Shown here: positions 8,000-13,684 of the stretch, piece after piece | Numbering within the stretch: position 1 is the stretch's first letter | How the letters are laid out: each line of letters starts with the position of its first letter | Translations under genes and position numbers: made by a program | Notes under the pieces: model-generated | The model's input: only the letters and a program-made list of their open reading frames with translations | Told to the model about the DNA's origin: nothing | Databases searched by the model: none | From: a virus | Lineage: Duplodnaviria; Heunggongvirae; Uroviricota; Caudoviricetes | Direction: 5' to 3' (one strand) | Virus record (IMG/VR): IMGVR_UViG_2684622670_000006 | Length of the DNA stretch: 15,321 bases

Positions 8000-8602
8000 T
8001 CATGGCATGGCCATGAGCATTTTCACGTCCGCATCACCGTCTGCTGACGTCTGTGGCACGCCACCCTGTACCGCTGCCGGTGAATGGTTCGCCATGAAAT
8101 GTTCAAACATGGCGGTTGTGGATGCAGAGACCGGTTCTGCCTTACCTGATCCCGCAGCCAGCACAGCCCGGGCGCTCTCCACAGTCATTCCCAGGCAGGC
8201 AGCCAGCTGTTCAGCCTGCGCCTCAGCCCCTTTTGCCTCATCCAGTGCCATGATCTGATCACGGAGTGAGGGTCCGGCATCCGCCTGCGGTGAAGCAGCC
8301 AGGATCGGGCGGGCTTTTTCCACCGTCATCTCCGGCATCGCCGCCAGCGTTGCCGCCAGTTGTTCACGACCTTTCGCTTCTTCACACGCCATAATGCGAT
8401 CGGCTTCACTCTGCGCGGGTACCACCGGCTGCTGTGGTGCCGCCACGGCCAGAATCGCCCGGGCCTGTTCAACGCTCATGCCCTGTTGTCCTGCCAGCAT
8501 CGTGGCAAGCTGTTCACGTCCTTTCGCTTCCTGGCATGTCAGGATCCCCATAACTCGCTGGTTCTCCTGCGCGGCGGCTTCCGTTGCAGTTAATTGCGGC
8601 AT
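8000..8602 (-). CDS. Nu3: Scaffolding protein Nu3-like, nested in-frame in the 3' part of C (internal start)
   Basis: In-frame ATG at 8602 (MPQLTATEAAAQENQRVMGILTCQEAKGREQ...) with a strong Shine-Dalgarno (AGAGGAGG) inside the C coding sequence. This mirrors the lambda C/Nu3 nested arrangement. Confidence 0.65.
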   Translation of the reverse strand: MPQLTATEAAAQENQRVMGILTCQEAKGREQLATMLAGQQGMSVEQARAILAVAAPQQPVVPAQSEADRIMACEEAKGREQLAATLAAMPEMTVEKARPILAASPQADAGPSLRDQIMALDEAKGAEAQAEQLAACLGMTVESARAVLAAGSGKAEPVSASTTAMFEHFMANHSPAAVQGGVPQTSADGDADVKMLMAMP

Positions 8603-9505
8603 AGTGCCTCCTCTGACATTACTGTTCAGCGCCGTGGCCATCACACTGATGGCATCCGACGCATTGACTAATTCATCCGCCAGCCCGGCATCAATGCCGG
8701 ACTGACCTTCAAAAACGGCGGCCTCTGTTCCCGTGACGGCATCAACAGACAGGCCGGTAAACATCGCCACTTTTTCGGCAAACATCCGGCGCGCCGCATC
8801 AATCCGCTGCTGCATGTCCTGGCGAACCTCTGCCGGCAACGCTTCAAACTGATTGCCATCCACCTTGTGCGCCCCTGAGTAAATCAGCGTGATATCCACA
8901 CCGGCCTGCGCCAGATGACCGGCATAGCTGACATGGCTCATCATCACGCCAATGGAGCCGATACGGGATGTCTGGGTAACCAGCCGTCGGGAGCAGGCCG
9001 ACGCCAGCAGCATGGCTGCAGAACAGGCCGTGTCATTGCACAGTGCCCAGACCGGCTTCTGCTGACGGAGGCGGTAAATCATGTCAGCGCAGTCAAACGC
9101 TCCGGCGGCCTGCCCGCCCGGACTGTCAATGTCCAGCAGTACGCCCCGCACCTGGCTATCCGCCATTGCCTGCTGAAGACAGGCGACAATGCCGTCATAG
9201 CCTGTCATTCCGGAAAATGGCCGCATACCACCCAGCCGGTGCACCAGCGTGCCGGTCACCGGCAGTACAGCAATACCGTTCACCACCCGGTAAACACGGG
9301 CCGGTCGTTTACCTCCGGCCATATACTCGTCCGTTTCAGCCAGCATTCCGGGAGCATCAAGCTGTACCTGTTGTTGTGGTACCGAAAGACTTGCTGCCCC
9401 CATCTCGCGCCCGAGCGCGCAAAAGAAAACCCGCGCATAGGCGGGCTCCAGAAGCAGCGGTTCATTGAATGCTGCGGCAATAATGTGTGAAAGATTACGT
9501 CTCAC
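8000..9505 (-). CDS. C: Prohead protease / minor capsid protein C (lambda gpC-like, ClpP/S49-type), 501 aa
   Basis: N-terminal region matches lambda gpC motifs (AFNEPLLLEPAYARVFFCAL, GMTGYDGI, KPVWALCNDTACSAA, SRRLVTQTSRIGSIGVMMSH, ITLIYSGAHKVDGN). The track start at 9505 is a GTG codon, with GAGGAG upstream. The C-terminal part carries three tandem copies of a roughly 48-aa repeat. Confidence 0.9.
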   Translation of the reverse strand: MRRNLSHIIAAAFNEPLLLEPAYARVFFCALGREMGAASLSVPQQQVQLDAPGMLAETDEYMAGGKRPARVYRVVNGIAVLPVTGTLVHRLGGMRPFSGMTGYDGIVACLQQAMADSQVRGVLLDIDSPGGQAAGAFDCADMIYRLRQQKPVWALCNDTACSAAMLLASACSRRLVTQTSRIGSIGVMMSHVSYAGHLAQAGVDITLIYSGAHKVDGNQFEALPAEVRQDMQQRIDAARRMFAEKVAMFTGLSVDAVTGTEAAVFEGQSGIDAGLADELVNASDAISVMATALNSNVRGGTMPQLTATEAAAQENQRVMGILTCQEAKGREQLATMLAGQQGMSVEQARAILAVAAPQQPVVPAQSEADRIMACEEAKGREQLAATLAAMPEMTVEKARPILAASPQADAGPSLRDQIMALDEAKGAEAQAEQLAACLGMTVESARAVLAAGSGKAEPVSASTTAMFEHFMANHSPAAVQGGVPQTSADGDADVKMLMAMP

Positions 9506-9713
9506 GTGGTGTTGTCTCCTCTTCCGGCCTGCGACTCTCCGCTATCTGCTGCTGATACGCCTGCGCTATCCACACCGGACGTGAGAGTCCGGCTTTTTCC
9601 CGCTCTGCAGATTCCCTGACCTGCTGGCGGAAAATGTCCTGATAATCCTCGCCCATCAGCGCCAGCTCTTTCTCATACGTGCTCAGTCCGGCCTCAATGC
9701 GCATCACTGATTC
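9495..9713 (-). pseudogene. B: In-frame continuation of the portal gene downstream of the amber codon (portal C-terminal about 72 codons)
   Basis: Same frame as B. Translation ESVMRIEAGLSTYEKELALMGEDYQDIFRQQVRESAEREKAGLSRP... matches the lambda gpB C-terminus (MLIEAGLSTYEKE...QEIFAQQVRE...). Confidence 0.75.
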
Positions 9714-11087
9714 CTAGACTTCCTTGAGCCCATCAATGGTCATTCTTCCGGCTCCAATCCACTCTGCCCGTGACCAGGCTGATCGCGCCTGATAAAAATC
9801 AAAACGTGCCCGTGGCGGACGAATAATCCCCCGAAGAAGTGCCTCTTCCAGCCAGCAGGAAAACATCTGCGTGGCCAGCCGGGCCGCAATAAATTTTCGC
9901 CGCCCCATAAAATAGCGCCACGACTCATTGGCGGAGGCGCGGGCACTTGAGTAACTGACCTTCGAGTAATCACGGGACAACTGTTCGTAGGAAACGCCAA
10001 GACCGGCGGCGATATACCGCAGCAACGCCTGTTCAAGCGCAGAAAATCCATTGTCTGAATCCTGCGCAGTCTGTAGTTTCAGATCATCACCAGGGAAAAG
10101 GTGCGGAATTTTGACACCGCCCAGTGTCACGTTATTCGTGTCATACCAGCTGGAGAACTTCTCCAGAATATTAATAAGCGGATTATCCTTCTGCTCCTGT
10201 GGCGCGCCGGCGATATATTCAAAGGCCTTTTCGGTATCAAGTTCACTTTCAATCGTCGCTGCATACATCGCCTTCACTATGGCCGACTGAAGCTGTGTTG
10301 CCTGCAGGGAATCGAGCATCTTCAGCCGTTCCATGACGCTGTAAAACTGATTAGCCCCACGAGTCTGCCCGTCCTCCACCGGCTCGAAAATATGCAGCAT
10401 GGCCGGACGCCCGGTGGCAAGTTCACGCGGGATCCGTTCCCATCGTCCACTACCAGAGAACGGAAAATCATCCTCACAGATATGGTACGCAACGGCACGG
10501 CCATATCGATCGACCTCCACACCGGCCCGCAGAAAGCGGTTCCCCATACCGTGTCCTGGCGTGTCCACCCGTTTCGGACTCACGGCTTTAAAACGCGTAC
10601 GAAATAACTGCGTGGTTTCCGTATCCCAGACCGGCTGCACAAAGATTTCGCCGTTAAACGCATGAACGCCCACACCTTCACGGATAAATTCCGTAAATGT
10701 GCGTTTTCCTTCCACGTCGATCTCGCCAAACATCCCTTCTGCGTATTCCGACCAGGCCGCCTCCACCTCATCGACAAAGCTTTTTGCTGCGGTCTCCCGC
10801 ATCCCCAGCCAGCGCCAGTTCGGACGGTAGCTGATCAGAAACATATGCCCGACAATGTGATCCTTATGCAGGGCCACCGCATTAGCCGCTATTCCGTTAT
10901 TGCGCACCAGATCATCTGCCCGGGCATTCCCCAGACGCAACGCGGGCAGCAGGGCCGCATCGACACTCTGCGCCGGTGGCAACCACTCCGCCATTTGCCC
11001 GCCAAATCCTGCGCCGCCCCCGTTGTAGCTGAGACTCTCACGAAGCGGAACGCCGTTCACATCAATCAGGACAGGCGTTCGTTTCAT
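9714..11087 (-). CDS. B: Portal protein B (lambda gpB-like), ending prematurely at an in-frame amber codon (457 aa as encoded)
   Basis: 457-aa ORF collinear with lambda gpB (e.g. GANQFYSVMERLKMLDSLQATQLQSAIVKAMYAATIESELDT, LLRYIAAGLGVSYEQLSR). It ends ...GRMTIDGLKEV followed by TAG at 9714-9716, where lambda continues with Gln. Confidence 0.9.
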   Translation of the reverse strand: MKRTPVLIDVNGVPLRESLSYNGGGAGFGGQMAEWLPPAQSVDAALLPALRLGNARADDLVRNNGIAANAVALHKDHIVGHMFLISYRPNWRWLGMRETAAKSFVDEVEAAWSEYAEGMFGEIDVEGKRTFTEFIREGVGVHAFNGEIFVQPVWDTETTQLFRTRFKAVSPKRVDTPGHGMGNRFLRAGVEVDRYGRAVAYHICEDDFPFSGSGRWERIPRELATGRPAMLHIFEPVEDGQTRGANQFYSVMERLKMLDSLQATQLQSAIVKAMYAATIESELDTEKAFEYIAGAPQEQKDNPLINILEKFSSWYDTNNVTLGGVKIPHLFPGDDLKLQTAQDSDNGFSALEQALLRYIAAGLGVSYEQLSRDYSKVSYSSARASANESWRYFMGRRKFIAARLATQMFSCWLEEALLRGIIRPPRARFDFYQARSAWSRAEWIGAGRMTIDGLKEV

Positions 11088-11290
11088 AACCTCACTCCCA
11101 GCGGACGACGGCGACGTCGGGTTGTCCCCAGTACCGACTCCGCATCATTGATCGCCCGGTTAAGCTCATCCAGAGAAGCCGCCGTATATTCAATTCTGCG
11201 ACCATCTTTCTGGACAGACACCACCCGTTTACCGGTTAATAAATCAAGGCGCGCCTGACGCAGCGCCTGCAGTTCAGCGACTGTAACCAT
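11084..11290 (-). CDS. W: Head completion / head-tail joining protein W (lambda gpW-like, 68 aa)
   Basis: MVTVAELQALRQARLDLLTGKRVVSVQKDGRRIEYTAASL... aligns with lambda gpW (TGKRVATVQKDGRRVEFTA). ATG at 11290 is preceded by GGAGGAG. Stop overlaps the B start (ATGA). Confidence 0.9.
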   Translation of the reverse strand: MVTVAELQALRQARLDLLTGKRVVSVQKDGRRIEYTAASLDELNRAINDAESVLGTTRRRRRPLGVRL

Positions 11291-13203
11291 TCACTCCTCC
11301 GGACAGCTTCGCTGCCAGTTCTTTCAGGGTTGGCCGGGTCGTCTCTATCTTCCCGGGATTTTGCCAGTACAGCCAGATCAAGCTGCCAGCGTTGCACGGA
11401 CACACGTAATGCCGCGTAGGCATACACCAGGCAGTCCAGCGCTTCGTTACGCCGCTTTTTGTTATCCCACAGCAGACGCATCTTTCCTTTTTCCCACTTC
11501 TCCACAAGCTCTTCCGCGACCAGTTGCTGCGCCTCTGCCTGCGAAAAAATCTCCGGATCATCAGGAAAACGGATGGCATACGACGTGGATTCATCCGCAG
11601 GCGTGGGAGCGGCTTTCATACGGGCATAGAGAATTTCTTTTGCGGTGTCTGTCCCCACTTCACACAGATACACGCCCCGCTGATTGCGGGTTTTTGGCAT
11701 GGTGATCACCGGCTTACCATAGACAGATGCGCCTTTTACCGGCAGCACCCGGAAAACACCGTGTTTTTTTGACCTCTGATAAACGATTTCGCCATCGATC
11801 CCCCCGATGTCCCAGCAGACACGGGAAATGGTCATTTCGGTTCCGTCTGCATGGCGGTATTTTTTGTTGATCGCCGCATCCACACGTAACAGCGTCTCTT
11901 CCTCATCGGGACGTCCCATAATGATGATTTTATCCACCAGAAAGGCTTCCTCTCCCGGAGCCCATCCCCAGACATACATCTCAAAACGGTTTCGCTGCGA
12001 GTCAATGCCCGCCGTCAGATAAACCACCCGGGCTGGCACCGCCGCCGTGTAATGCACAACCTTATCCATCAGTACCTGGTGATCGAGTTTTTCGCCCACG
12101 GCCTCTTCCCAGGTCTCGCCCAGCGTGGTGTTAACAAAAGTTTTCAGACCGTTGGGATCTTTCAGTGCATCCAGCCAGTCATAGACAATCTGTACCCAGG
12201 TGGTGAACGGACTGTACGCCGTCCAGATATGGAAAGTGATGGAGCGCGGCGGCGGAATTTCATCCCCCCGGGCGCTGAAAAACATCAGGCCGTCACGGGT
12301 CCACATGCTCGTGTTTTCACAGATCCACCGCCCGTTACTCTGGTCAAGCTCAGACTGATGGATCACACAGCCATGATGCTCACAAAGGTAGAAAACACTT
12401 TCTGGCTTATTCTTCTCCCACTTAAGACCGAAAGGCGAGGCATCATCGCCAAATTTCAGATACTGCGCCTCCCCACAGTGCGGACAGGGCACGTAAAAAC
12501 GCATGAAATGTGCCGACTCGTTAGCGGCTTTTTCGATCTGGCAGGAGCCTTTGATTTTAGGCGTCGAGCCGCGAATGGATTTTGGCCATACAGAGCCCTC
12601 AATACGTTTATCCCCCAGCAGGGTTGGCGACCCCTCTTTTTCAACATCCGGTTCGAACGAGGAAAGCTCGTCATAACAGACCACATCCACGGATTTTTCA
12701 CGGTAGTTTTTGGCGGCAGCGCCGCCCAGGCACCAGAAGCCCACACCCGATGAAAAGCGTTTCAGCGTGAGAGTATTGTCACGATGTTTACGACCCAGCC
12801 ATGGGGAAAGGTCTTTCAGGCATGGCACGTCCCGAATCGTCGCCTCCACGTGAGACTTCATAAAATCTTCAGCGGCAGAATCCGTGGGCTGAAAAAGCAG
12901 ACTGTTTCGGGATTTATGCTCAATAAAATACCCGACCACCCCCAGCAACATCTTTGTATAGCCAACACGGGCAGATTTAATCAGATTAACAGTGCGGATC
13001 TGATCATTCCCCATACTGTTCATGATGGCGATCTGGAATGGCAGCGTTTTCCATTCGCCGTCACCGTATGAGGATTCTTTAGGCAGATAATAATTTTGAT
13101 CAGCCCATTCAACTGCCGTCATCGGTACAACCCTGACCAGAGGCTGCAGCGCAACCGAAACGGCAGCCATCATATTATTCAGTTGTTGCTCTGATATATT
13201 CAT
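11236..13203 (-). CDS. A: Terminase large subunit A (lambda gpA-like); 3' end probably frameshifted
   Basis: From the ATG at 13203 (MNISEQQLNN...TAVEWADQNYYLPKES...), collinear with lambda gpA including Walker/ATPase and nuclease regions. The last ~30 codons of the listed frame are Arg/Cys-rich and overlap W by 55 nt. A lambda-like C-terminus (TLKELAAKLSGG...) is in the +1 frame, ending at 11274. Confidence 0.85.
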   Translation of the reverse strand: MNISEQQLNNMMAAVSVALQPLVRVVPMTAVEWADQNYYLPKESSYGDGEWKTLPFQIAIMNSMGNDQIRTVNLIKSARVGYTKMLLGVVGYFIEHKSRNSLLFQPTDSAAEDFMKSHVEATIRDVPCLKDLSPWLGRKHRDNTLTLKRFSSGVGFWCLGGAAAKNYREKSVDVVCYDELSSFEPDVEKEGSPTLLGDKRIEGSVWPKSIRGSTPKIKGSCQIEKAANESAHFMRFYVPCPHCGEAQYLKFGDDASPFGLKWEKNKPESVFYLCEHHGCVIHQSELDQSNGRWICENTSMWTRDGLMFFSARGDEIPPPRSITFHIWTAYSPFTTWVQIVYDWLDALKDPNGLKTFVNTTLGETWEEAVGEKLDHQVLMDKVVHYTAAVPARVVYLTAGIDSQRNRFEMYVWGWAPGEEAFLVDKIIIMGRPDEEETLLRVDAAINKKYRHADGTEMTISRVCWDIGGIDGEIVYQRSKKHGVFRVLPVKGASVYGKPVITMPKTRNQRGVYLCEVGTDTAKEILYARMKAAPTPADESTSYAIRFPDDPEIFSQAEAQQLVAEELVEKWEKGKMRLLWDNKKRRNEALDCLVYAYAALRVSVQRWQLDLAVLAKSREDRDDPANPERTGSEAVRRSEWLQSLNCRRCVRRALIY

Positions 13204-13684
13204 CGAGTAAATCCGGTAATTTATCCCCTGCCCGCGCACACTGATTTGCCCCCTTCGCAATAAGGGTTTTCAGATGGTCAAGATGGCGCGGTGTTAAATC
13301 AGGAAACTGTCGCTGCATGGATAAAGGGATGGAATCAAGCGTACTGGATAACGCCATTGCCAGCTTACTGAGGGCAAAAATACAGAATCCGGTGTCAATA
13401 AGCTTTCCTTCGGACGCCTGATTTTTTAATTGCTGGGCGATTGCCTGTTCTTCGATCAACTTCCATCTGGCAATGAGTAACTTTTCTTCATAGTCGTCTT
13501 CGCTATCGCCATCAGGCACATCGTTTTTACTTCTCCTCAGATACGATATGTAAAAATCACGCCAGGCATCCAGATCCAGTTGTCCTCGCTTATTCGAGAC
13601 CGGAGCACCCGGCAATTTCTGCAATCTGCGAAGCTGGCGATCGGTCAGACTCAAATGCCTGGCAACTTCAGTCTGCGTAGCCAC
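13175..13684 (-). CDS. Nu1: Terminase small subunit Nu1-like (169 aa) with a non-lambda N-terminal HTH domain
   Basis: C-terminal half resembles lambda Nu1 (FCIFALSKLA...SIPLSMQRQFPDL..RHLDHLK...LPDLLDEYI). The N-terminal about 60 aa (ATQTEVARHLSLTDRQLRRLQ...) is unlike lambda. Start is a GTG at 13684 with GAGGT 5 nt upstream. It sits next to cos and overlaps the A start as in lambda. Confidence 0.85.
   Translation of the reverse strand: MATQTEVARHLSLTDRQLRRLQKLPGAPVSNKRGQLDLDAWRDFYISYLRRSKNDVPDGDSEDDYEEKLLIARWKLIEEQAIAQQLKNQASEGKLIDTGFCIFALSKLAMALSSTLDSIPLSMQRQFPDLTPRHLDHLKTLIAKGANQCARAGDKLPDLLDEYIRATTE

What the first reader, a model, noticed from the sequence alone, without database searches (positions are those of the whole stretch)
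9495..11087. Portal gene B is split by a single in-frame amber (TAG) codon
The portal ORF stops at TAG (9714-9716) after ...DGLKEV. The same frame then continues for about 70 codons with clear portal C-terminal sequence (MRIEAGLSTYEKE...DIFRQQVRE...). Lambda has Gln (CAG) at this position as I recall it, so this looks like a single C-to-T nonsense change. As encoded the portal lacks its C-terminal ~70 residues. This could be a genuine inactivating mutation in a decaying prophage, an amber allele tolerated in a glutamine-inserting suppressor host (supE/glnV type), or a base-call error.
Basis: partly seen in the sequence, partly recalled or inferred. Interest (0 to 1): 0.55.

Follow-up and report, generated by a model that had tools for sequence, protein, structure and literature searches.

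The report
Amber-truncated prophage portal at Dcm hotspot
A resident virus (prophage) in an Escherichia albertii genome has had its portal gene knocked out by one C-to-T change that creates a stop codon, at a host DNA-methylation site of the kind known to mutate easily; this is ordinary prophage decay, though the same hit has happened independently in several other strains.

Summary
The phage-21/lambda-type portal gene (11087..9495, minus strand) has an in-frame TAG at 9716..9714 (codon 458), followed by 72 more portal codons. The window is scaffold BBVP01000036 of E. albertii NIAH_Bird_5 (MiSeq 80x). An independent Logan assembly of the reads gives the same sequence.

Two near-identical intact prophages (L174, L173) have CAG there. 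The L174 portal gene differs from the window's by this one base only. The ancestral sequence GTC CAG G contains a Dcm site (CCAGG), and the mutated base is its methylated inner C. That is the classical 5-methylcytosine deamination amber hotspot.

The same C-to-T change arose at least three times independently: in the window, in a set of 28 complete E. coli genomes (annotated "internal stop"), and in another E. coli draft. Each allele has its own CAG parent one base away. The only other nonsense allele among 240 further copies (W112am) is also at a Dcm site.

The truncated product lacks almost the whole crown domain. The terminase large-subunit gene carries a separate +1 frameshift that destroys its portal-docking C-terminus, which an amber suppressor could not rescue. 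Verdict: a real inactivating mutation in a decaying prophage, of a known kind and of low interest.

The parts
9495..11087 (-). Portal gene (lambda B / phage 21 gene 4 homologue), full 530-codon reading frame, now a pseudogene with one internal amber codon
   Evidence: sequence and translation. (98.9% identity to the phage 21 portal over residues 1-531, no gaps). (Pfam PF05136 Phage_portal_2). (E = 8.8e-214 to the solved lambda gpB structure).
9714..9716 (-). Amber codon TAG at portal codon 458. The mutated base is window 9716 (T on the minus strand; C in intact relatives).
   Evidence: L073/L174 differ from the window's portal gene by this base only.
9713..9717 (-). CTAGG, derived from the ancestral Dcm site CCAGG. 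The changed base is the inner cytosine that Dcm methylates.
   Evidence: five Dcm sites in the gene, three of which can give amber; 153 of 237 relatives have CCAGG here, and all four TAG alleles lie on that background.
9717..11087 (-). Encoded truncated product, 457 aa. By alignment to lambda gpB it keeps the wing, stem and clip domains and lacks almost all of the crown domain plus the C-terminal tail.
   Evidence: called as a 457-aa gene. (alignment to lambda gpB). (lambda crown = residues 453-511; phage 21 Q458 = lambda Q462).
9495..9704 (-). Downstream in-frame ORF of 69 codons (ATG 9704-9702; GTG alternative at 9707), preceded by AGGA at 9715-9712 with a 7-nt spacer. It is a possible translational restart product carrying most of the crown. 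Gene callers list it as a separate small protein.
   Evidence: sequence. (P0016, 70 aa, identical; 'portal domain protein'). Whether it is made or functional is not shown.
11236..13203 (-). Terminase large-subunit gene (lambda A / phage 21 gene 2 homologue) with a +1 T insertion at window 11347 (GAAGA[T]AGAG). The last 23 residues are replaced by 36 out-of-frame residues.
   Evidence: frame switch at residue 619/620. (nucleotide alignment). (insertion absent from L173/L174). (C-terminal sequences). (lambda Aam42, which loses 5 C-terminal residues, is defective in prohead binding).
8000..9505 (-). Head protease/scaffold gene (C/Nu3 homologue), intact. Its start overlaps the end of the portal frame.
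   Evidence: 501 aa, 97.6% identity to phage 21.
11084..11290 (-). Head-tail joining gene W homologue, intact, immediately upstream of the portal gene

Best explanation
The portal gene of a phage-21/lambda-type prophage in Escherichia albertii NIAH_Bird_5 was inactivated by a spontaneous C-to-T transition that turned Gln-458 (CAG) into amber (TAG). The hit base is the inner cytosine of a Dcm site (CCAGG). In Dcm-positive enterobacteria this cytosine is 5-methylated and deaminates directly to thymine. That is the classical cause of amber hotspots, and it explains why the same change recurs in unrelated prophage lineages. As encoded, translation ends after residue 457, giving a portal with wing, stem and clip but almost no crown domain or C-terminal tail. 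Together with an independent frameshift that removes the portal-docking C-terminus of the large terminase subunit, this makes the prophage defective for head assembly and DNA packaging. Shown here: the stop, its one-step derivation from CAG, the Dcm context, the recurrence and the second lesion. Inferred: that deamination of 5mC was the chemical event, and that the truncated portal is non-functional.
For: - The TAG is real in the sequence and in an independent assembly of the same run. The source is an 80x MiSeq genome.
- One-step derivation: L073/L174 and L328 carry a portal gene identical to the window's except C at gene position 1372. Over 8.9 kb, L174 differs from the window at only 9 positions.
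- Dcm context: the ancestral sequence is GTC CAG G = CCAGG, with the inner C mutated.
- The dcm and vsr genes are intact in the E. albertii type strain.
- The lacI amber hotspots are exactly this event, a transition at the second C of CCAGG (PMC12606429, citing Coulondre et al. 1978).
- Recurrence: the TAG alleles of the window, L007 (28 complete E. coli genomes, PGAP 'internal stop') and L010 each have a CAG partner 1 nt away. They differ from one another by 18-27 nt. L009 is a fourth, more divergent TAG allele.
- In 240 further copies from IMG/VR and metagenomes, the only nonsense allele is W112 TGG>TAG in CCTGG, also a Dcm 5mC position. Only 3 of 188 possible nonsense substitutions lie at such positions.
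- The truncation point maps to lambda Q462, inside the crown domain (residues 453-511).
- Second lesion: the +1 frameshift in the terminase large subunit. Lambda Aam42, which loses only 5 C-terminal residues, is already defective in prohead binding.
Against: - I could not see the reads, so a systematic error shared by both assemblies is not formally excluded.
- Dcm is shown for the species' type strain, not for NIAH_Bird_5, and methylation of this site was not measured.
- Three of the four TAG alleles were found by searching specifically for this site, so they show recurrence but are not an unbiased estimate of a rate excess.
- The two other predicted Dcm amber alleles (W112am, W438am) were not found in complete E. 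coli genomes.
- No experiment shows that a crown-less lambda-type portal is dead.
- Low-level readthrough or a restart fragment could leave some residual function.
- The apparent deletions in tail genes U and H coincide with N characters in the record and cannot be counted as further decay.
Confidence: 0.8

Rival explanations
1. Sequencing or assembly error: the true base is C and the portal gene is intact.
For: The record is a draft Platanus scaffold that contains two N placeholders hiding missing sequence, so it is not flawless. The reads could not be inspected.
Against: Coverage was 80x on MiSeq. A separate Logan assembly of DRR017161 gives the identical 9355 nt, including both the TAG and the terminase +T. 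Substitution errors do not survive consensus at that depth. The same allele is present in 28 finished genomes and 2 other drafts, so it is a naturally occurring state.
Confidence: 0.04
2. Conditional (sus-type) allele: the host carries a glutamine-inserting amber suppressor (glnV/supE type), so full-length portal is still made and the prophage is functional.
For: TAG replaces CAG, so a supE-type tRNA would restore the wild-type protein. In three other backgrounds (L007/L008, L009, L010) the amber is the only visible lesion in the late operon.
Against: In this window the large terminase subunit has a frameshift that no suppressor can correct. No tRNA gene lies in the window. All TAG alleles are tip mutations, one step from CAG alleles. 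That is what recurrent loss looks like, not a maintained allele. The other 105 scaffolds of the strain could not be searched.
Confidence: 0.03
3. Split but functional portal: ribosomes terminating at TAG restart at the ATG 9 nt downstream (AGGA, 7-nt spacer). The 457-aa body and the 69-aa crown fragment then assemble non-covalently.
For: A plausible Shine-Dalgarno/ATG arrangement lies directly after the stop. Gene callers predict the fragment as a separate protein, on 2 contigs (P0016) and up to 132 contigs (P0018).
Against: The AGGA and ATG are also present in every intact homologue, so they are not an adaptation to the stop. 320 of 324 sampled copies are unsplit. Nothing shows that the fragment is made or that it can complement. 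The terminase lesion argues that selection on this packaging module has lapsed.
Confidence: 0.03
4. The TAG was not a new mutation in each lineage. One ancestral amber allele spread among lambdoid prophages by very short recombination or gene-conversion patches.
For: Lambdoid prophages recombine freely. The window, L009 and L010 share the downstream variants A1482/G1489.
Against: That downstream haplotype is also common with CAG (21 of 83 CAG copies). Each TAG allele is identical at all other 1592 positions to its own CAG partner. A transferred patch into the window would therefore have to be shorter than about 126 nt (between positions 1356 and 1482). L007 has a different downstream haplotype.
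Confidence: 0.08

Closest known systems
lacI amber hotspots at CCAGG (Coulondre, Miller, Farabaugh & Gilbert 1978; reviewed in PMC12606429)
   Same: Same sequence context (second C of CCAGG, a Dcm site), same change (C to T), same consequence (CAG to TAG amber) and same property of recurring.
   Different: Here it is seen in natural prophage populations of E. albertii and E. coli rather than in a laboratory mutant collection. Methylation and deamination are inferred, not measured.
Portal pseudogene 'internal stop' annotated by PGAP in E. coli WP5-S18-ESBL-09, AVS0501 and 26 other complete genomes
   Same: Identical TAG at the identical codon of the same portal gene family.
   Different: Independent event on a different allele (23 nt apart; its CAG parent is L049/L054/L312). 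In those genomes the terminase and other late genes look intact.
Lambda B amber (sus) mutants and lambda Aam42
   Same: Nonsense alleles of the portal and of the terminase C-terminus that block head assembly and packaging. Aam42 shows that even 5 missing C-terminal residues of gpA abolish prohead docking.
   Different: Those are laboratory alleles kept in suppressor hosts. The positions of the classical Bam alleles were not checked here, and lambda itself has GTT CAG G (no Dcm site) at this codon.
Defective lambdoid prophages of enterobacteria (for example DLP12, Rac and Qin of E. coli K-12; from general knowledge)
   Same: Resident lambdoid prophage accumulating inactivating point mutations in virion genes.
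   Different: This one is at a very early stage. It is 99.9% identical to intact relatives, with only two visible lesions in about 9 kb.

Membership tests
Lambda-family portal protein (Pfam PF05136 Phage_portal_2; lambda gpB / phage 21 gp4) | Sequence homology over the whole length | tested here: met
   98.9% identity to the phage 21 portal over residues 1-531 with no gaps. PF05136 hit. The phage 21 orthologue matches the solved lambda gpB at E = 8.8e-214.
Lambda-family portal protein (Pfam PF05136 Phage_portal_2; lambda gpB / phage 21 gp4) | Gene order Nu1-A-W-B-C/Nu3-D-E in the late operon | tested here: met
   same order as annotated in phage 21.
Lambda-family portal protein (Pfam PF05136 Phage_portal_2; lambda gpB / phage 21 gp4) | Uninterrupted ORF encoding all four domains (wing, stem, clip, crown) | tested here: not met
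   Amber at codon 458 = lambda Q462, inside the crown domain (453-511). It is a pseudogene of this family, not a functional member as encoded.
Dcm-site 5-methylcytosine deamination mutation | Ancestral sequence is CCWGG and the changed base is the inner C (or its partner G on the other strand) | tested here: met
   GTC CAG G to GTC TAG G. The CAG parent L073/L174 has CCAGG.
Dcm-site 5-methylcytosine deamination mutation | The change is a C-to-T transition | tested here: met
Dcm-site 5-methylcytosine deamination mutation | Host encodes Dcm methyltransferase | tested here: inconclusive
   The E. albertii type strain has intact dcm (472 aa, 97% identity to K-12) and vsr. The other scaffolds of NIAH_Bird_5 could not be reached.
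Dcm-site 5-methylcytosine deamination mutation | Hotspot behaviour: the same change recurs independently and nonsense alleles concentrate at Dcm positions | tested here: met
   At least three independent events at position 1372. The only other nonsense allele in 240 copies is at Dcm position 335. Only 3 of 188 possible nonsense changes are at Dcm positions. Caveats: three of the four TAG alleles at position 1372 were ascertained by site, and W112am/W438am are absent from complete E. coli genomes.
Dcm-site 5-methylcytosine deamination mutation | The cytosine is actually methylated in vivo | not testable with these tools
   Needs bisulfite, SMRT or nanopore methylation data.
Suppressor-dependent (sus/amber) conditional phage allele | Host or phage carries an amber-suppressor tRNA | not testable with these tools
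   No tRNA in the window.
Suppressor-dependent (sus/amber) conditional phage allele | The phage is otherwise intact, so suppression restores viability | tested here: not met
   +1 frameshift in the terminase large subunit removes its C-terminal 23 residues.
Programmed stop-codon readthrough / recoding site | The stop codon is conserved among homologues | tested here: not met
   Codon 458 is CAG in 83 of 87 copies and in 240 of 240 further copies.

The most novel reading that the evidence does not exclude
Codon 458 of phage-21-type portal genes may be a natural, host-methylation-driven knock-out hotspot. On this reading, Dcm methylation of CCAGG makes this essential virion gene the first to fall in many independent prophage lineages. 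In three other backgrounds the amber is the only visible late-gene lesion. Host cytosine methylation would then measurably speed prophage domestication. Alternatively, the amber alleles could remain conditionally functional, through suppression, leaky readthrough or a restart-made crown fragment.
Probability: 0.1. Interest if true: 0.45.

Novelty: new member of a known kind. Interest (0 to 1): 0.22.

Why it matters
For annotation, this portal gene should be called a pseudogene and the prophage scored as defective for virion production. The two small ORFs should not be called as separate proteins. More generally, it is a clean natural example of the textbook Dcm/5-methylcytosine amber hotspot acting on prophages. 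The same essential codon has been knocked out independently in E. albertii and in several E. coli lineages. This shows that mutational bias, not only relaxed selection, shapes which prophage genes decay first. It also warns that recurrent identical pseudogene alleles need not be identical by descent.

Tried and rejected
- Exact scans for the TAG-containing 31-mer or 29-mer found nothing in genome contigs, viral contigs or metagenome contigs. The allele is absent from species-representative genomes, IMG/VR and JGI metagenomes.
- An 81-nt query in complete E. coli genomes gave no identical hit, because the window has three more allele-specific SNPs nearby. Shortening it to 51 nt revealed the 28 genomes with TAG.
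- I first counted a 115-nt deletion with frameshift in tail terminator gene U as a third lesion. I rejected this because the deposited record has an N exactly at that junction (window 5051). It has a second N exactly at a 54-nt gap in tape-measure gene H (window 2003). The window shows both as T. The assembly is Platanus scaffolds, and L174 carries the missing 116 nt.
- L011, a metagenome scaffold that also encodes the 70-aa fragment, has a different lesion. It is a 1-nt deletion with CAG retained, possibly an assembly error, so it is not counted.
- As a prospective test, I searched for the two other predicted Dcm amber alleles, W112am and W438am, in complete E. coli genomes. There were 0 hits among 749 and 1452 places. 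This gives no added support and has low power.
- I did not run control searches for non-Dcm nonsense alleles, because with so few events they would be uninformative.
Its identity to the L007 C-terminal fragment was checked instead.
- Literature searches for the accession numbers gave nothing directly. The source strain was identified through neighbouring accessions and Table S1 of PMC4700944.
- Structure prediction was not run, because the solved lambda gpB structure and its published domain limits already place the truncation.
Full report
**What is in the sequence**

All genes in the window lie on the minus strand. They form the late operon of a lambdoid prophage: lysis gene fragment, Rha-family gene, Nu1, A, W, portal, C/Nu3, D, E, FI, FII, Z, U, V, G/T, H, M and part of L.

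- The head genes are of the phage 21 type. The portal frame 11087..9495 is 98.9% identical to phage 21 gene 4 over all 530 codons, without gaps.
- In that frame, codon 458 is TAG (window 9716-9714). It is preceded by ...IDGLKEV.
- It is followed by 72 further portal codons (ESVMRIEAGLSTYEKE...TPRET) up to TAA at 9497-9495.

**Where the window comes from**

An exact look-up of the 457-aa product shows that the window is the whole of scaffold BBVP01000036.1 of assembly GCA_001514785.1.

- Table S1 of Ooka et al. 2015 (PMC4700944) assigns BBVP01000001-106 to Escherichia albertii NIAH_Bird_5. This strain came from a short-tailed shearwater in Japan in 2004. It was sequenced on MiSeq at 80x and assembled with Platanus 1.1.4.
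- A separate Logan assembly of run DRR017161 gives a 9355-nt contig identical to the window, including the TAG.
- A base-call or assembly error is therefore unlikely, although I could not see the reads.

**The ancestral state**

- Phage 21 and PhiR57_1 have CAG at this codon. So does lambda, at the aligned residue Q462.
- Among 87 portal genes first assembled (window, three annotated references, three other TAG carriers and 80 IMG/VR loci), the codon is CAG in 83 and TAG in 4.
- In 240 further copies from IMG/VR and metagenomes it is always CAG.
- IMG/VR contig L073/L174 and metagenome contig L328 carry a portal gene that differs from the window's at this base only.
- Over 8.9 kb, L174 differs from the window at only 9 positions. 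Over 9.7 kb, L173 differs at 11.
- The TAG is therefore a recent, one-step C-to-T derivative of an intact allele that still circulates.

**Why this codon**

The ancestral sequence is GTC CAG GAA. It contains CCAGG, a Dcm site (CCWGG), and the mutated base is the inner cytosine that Dcm methylates. Deamination of 5-methylcytosine gives thymine directly. This is the classical explanation of the lacI amber hotspots, which are transitions at the second C of CCAGG (PMC12606429, citing Coulondre et al. 1978).

- The E. albertii type strain encodes intact dcm (97% identical to K-12) and vsr. The strain itself could not be checked.
- The phage 21 portal gene has five Dcm sites.
- Of 188 possible nonsense substitutions in the gene (55 of them C>T or G>A), only three lie at Dcm 5mC positions: 335, 1313 and 1372.

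**Recurrence**

A 51-nt query around the stop finds the identical TAG in 28 complete E. coli genomes. These look like one clone: their genome sizes and prophage coordinates are very similar, and L007 and L008 are identical. PGAP annotates the portal there as a pseudogene with an 'internal stop'. Two further E. coli drafts, L009 and L010, also have the 457 + 70 aa split.

- The TAG alleles are not each other's closest relatives. The window, L007 and L010 differ from one another by 18-27 nt.
- Each of these three is exactly one nucleotide (the C/T) away from its own CAG-bearing partner: L073/L328, L049/L054/L312 and L078/L081/L082/L086/L254 respectively.
- That indicates at least three independent hits at the same base. 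L009 is a probable fourth.
- A single origin spread by recombination would require transferred patches shorter than about 126 nt.
- All four TAG alleles sit on the GTC (Dcm) background. 84 of 237 sampled CAG copies have GTT CAG G, which is not a Dcm site. This is consistent with the mechanism but not significant on its own (0.65^4 = 0.17).
- In the sample that was not ascertained by site, the only nonsense allele is W112 TGG>TAG within CCTGG (L057 and L317). This is the Dcm position on the other strand that had been predicted.
- Taking the window's stop and this one as two events unbiased for site, the chance that both fall on the three Dcm nonsense positions is about (3/188)^2 = 2.5e-4. Restricted to transitions it is (3/55)^2 = 3e-3. 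This arithmetic uses the counts.
- A prospective search for W112am and W438am in complete E. coli genomes found none. The hotspot evidence therefore rests on few events.

**Consequence for the protein**

By the alignment to solved lambda gpB, phage 21 Q458 corresponds to lambda Q462. The lambda domains are wing 24-249 and 368-452, stem, clip, and crown 453-511 (PMC10721106).

- The encoded 457-aa product therefore keeps wing, stem and clip. It loses almost the entire crown and the C-terminal tail.
- That such a portal is non-functional is an inference.
- Directly after the stop there is AGGA (9715-9712), a 7-nt spacer and ATG (9704-9702). A 69-aa restart fragment is conceivable, and gene callers list it as a protein.
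- The same AGGA and ATG are present in all intact homologues, and nothing shows complementation.

**A second lesion**

The large terminase subunit gene has a single extra T at window 11347 (GAAGA[T]AGAG). It is not in a homopolymer run, is present in both assemblies, and is absent from L173/L174 and all other relatives checked.

- It replaces the last 23 residues (EETTRPTLKELAAKLSGGVNGYSR) with 36 unrelated ones.
- In lambda, the C-terminus of gpA is the prohead (portal) binding domain. Aam42, which lacks only five residues, is defective in docking (PMC4856287).
- Both partners of the portal-terminase contact are therefore damaged.
- This second lesion cannot be corrected by an amber suppressor, which argues against the suppressor-host reading. 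No tRNA gene lies in the window.

**What is not a lesion**

Tail genes U and H look deleted (115 nt with a frameshift, and 54 nt in frame). However, the deposited record has an N at exactly each junction (window 5051 and 2003), where the window shows T. L174 carries the missing U segment. These are scaffold gaps and say nothing about decay.

**Verdict**

This is a genuine, recent nonsense mutation in a prophage that has begun to decay. It was produced at a known type of mutational hotspot. The kind of event is textbook, and PGAP already flags the identical allele in E. coli as an internal stop. The modestly new element is that this particular essential codon is hit repeatedly in nature across E. 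albertii and E. coli. Interest is low (0.22). The most novel reading not excluded is that Dcm methylation systematically makes this codon the first casualty in prophage domestication, or that the amber alleles stay conditionally functional. I give that reading about 0.1 probability.

Noticed in passing
window 11347 (terminase large-subunit gene, 11236-13203, minus strand): A +1 T insertion shifts the frame 23 codons before the end of the terminase large-subunit gene. The ORF then runs 55 nt into gene W. The insertion is absent from near-identical relatives L173/L174. By analogy with lambda Aam42, it probably abolishes docking on the portal.
   Followed up: yes
window 5051 (gene U) and window 2003 (gene H): The deposited record has N at these two positions, where the window shows T. 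Each N sits exactly at an apparent deletion (115-116 nt in U, 54 nt in H). They are Platanus scaffold gaps of understated length. The split U gene (49 + 52 aa calls) and the short H are assembly artefacts, not biology.
   Followed up: yes
L057 (IMGVR_UViG_2541047924_000003) and L317 (OBZY01000279.1), portal codon 112: A different natural amber allele of the same portal gene: TGG(W112) to TAG within CCTGG, the Dcm 5mC position on the complementary strand.
   Followed up: partly
L007/L008 (NZ_AP022171.1, NZ_CP124511.1) and 26 other complete E. coli genomes: What looks like a single E. coli clone sampled in several countries (records seen from Japan and Switzerland) carries the same portal amber in a prophage whose other late genes are annotated intact. 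The 69-aa C-terminal fragment of this allele (P0018) is recorded on 132 contigs.
   Followed up: partly
window 13175-13684 (Nu1) and the 5' end of A: The small terminase subunit is only about 40% identical to that of phage 21, and the N-terminus of the large subunit also differs. From A onward, however, the head genes are 93-100% phage-21-like. This is a mosaic joint at the terminase specificity region, shared with L173/L174.
   Followed up: no
L011 (ENA metagenome scaffold KORP19-1...scaffold_57235): The portal frame is broken 2 codons after an intact CAG-458 by a 1-nt deletion (GAATCAGTG to GAATAGTG). This yields the same 70-aa downstream ORF. It is low-coverage metagenome data and may be an error.
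   Followed up: partly
window 9728-9749 (portal gene positions 1335, 1348, 1356): Three allele-specific substitutions (two synonymous, one Ala450Thr) cluster within 37 nt upstream of the stop. They are shared with the intact relatives L073/L071, so they predate the amber and are unrelated to it.
   Followed up: yes
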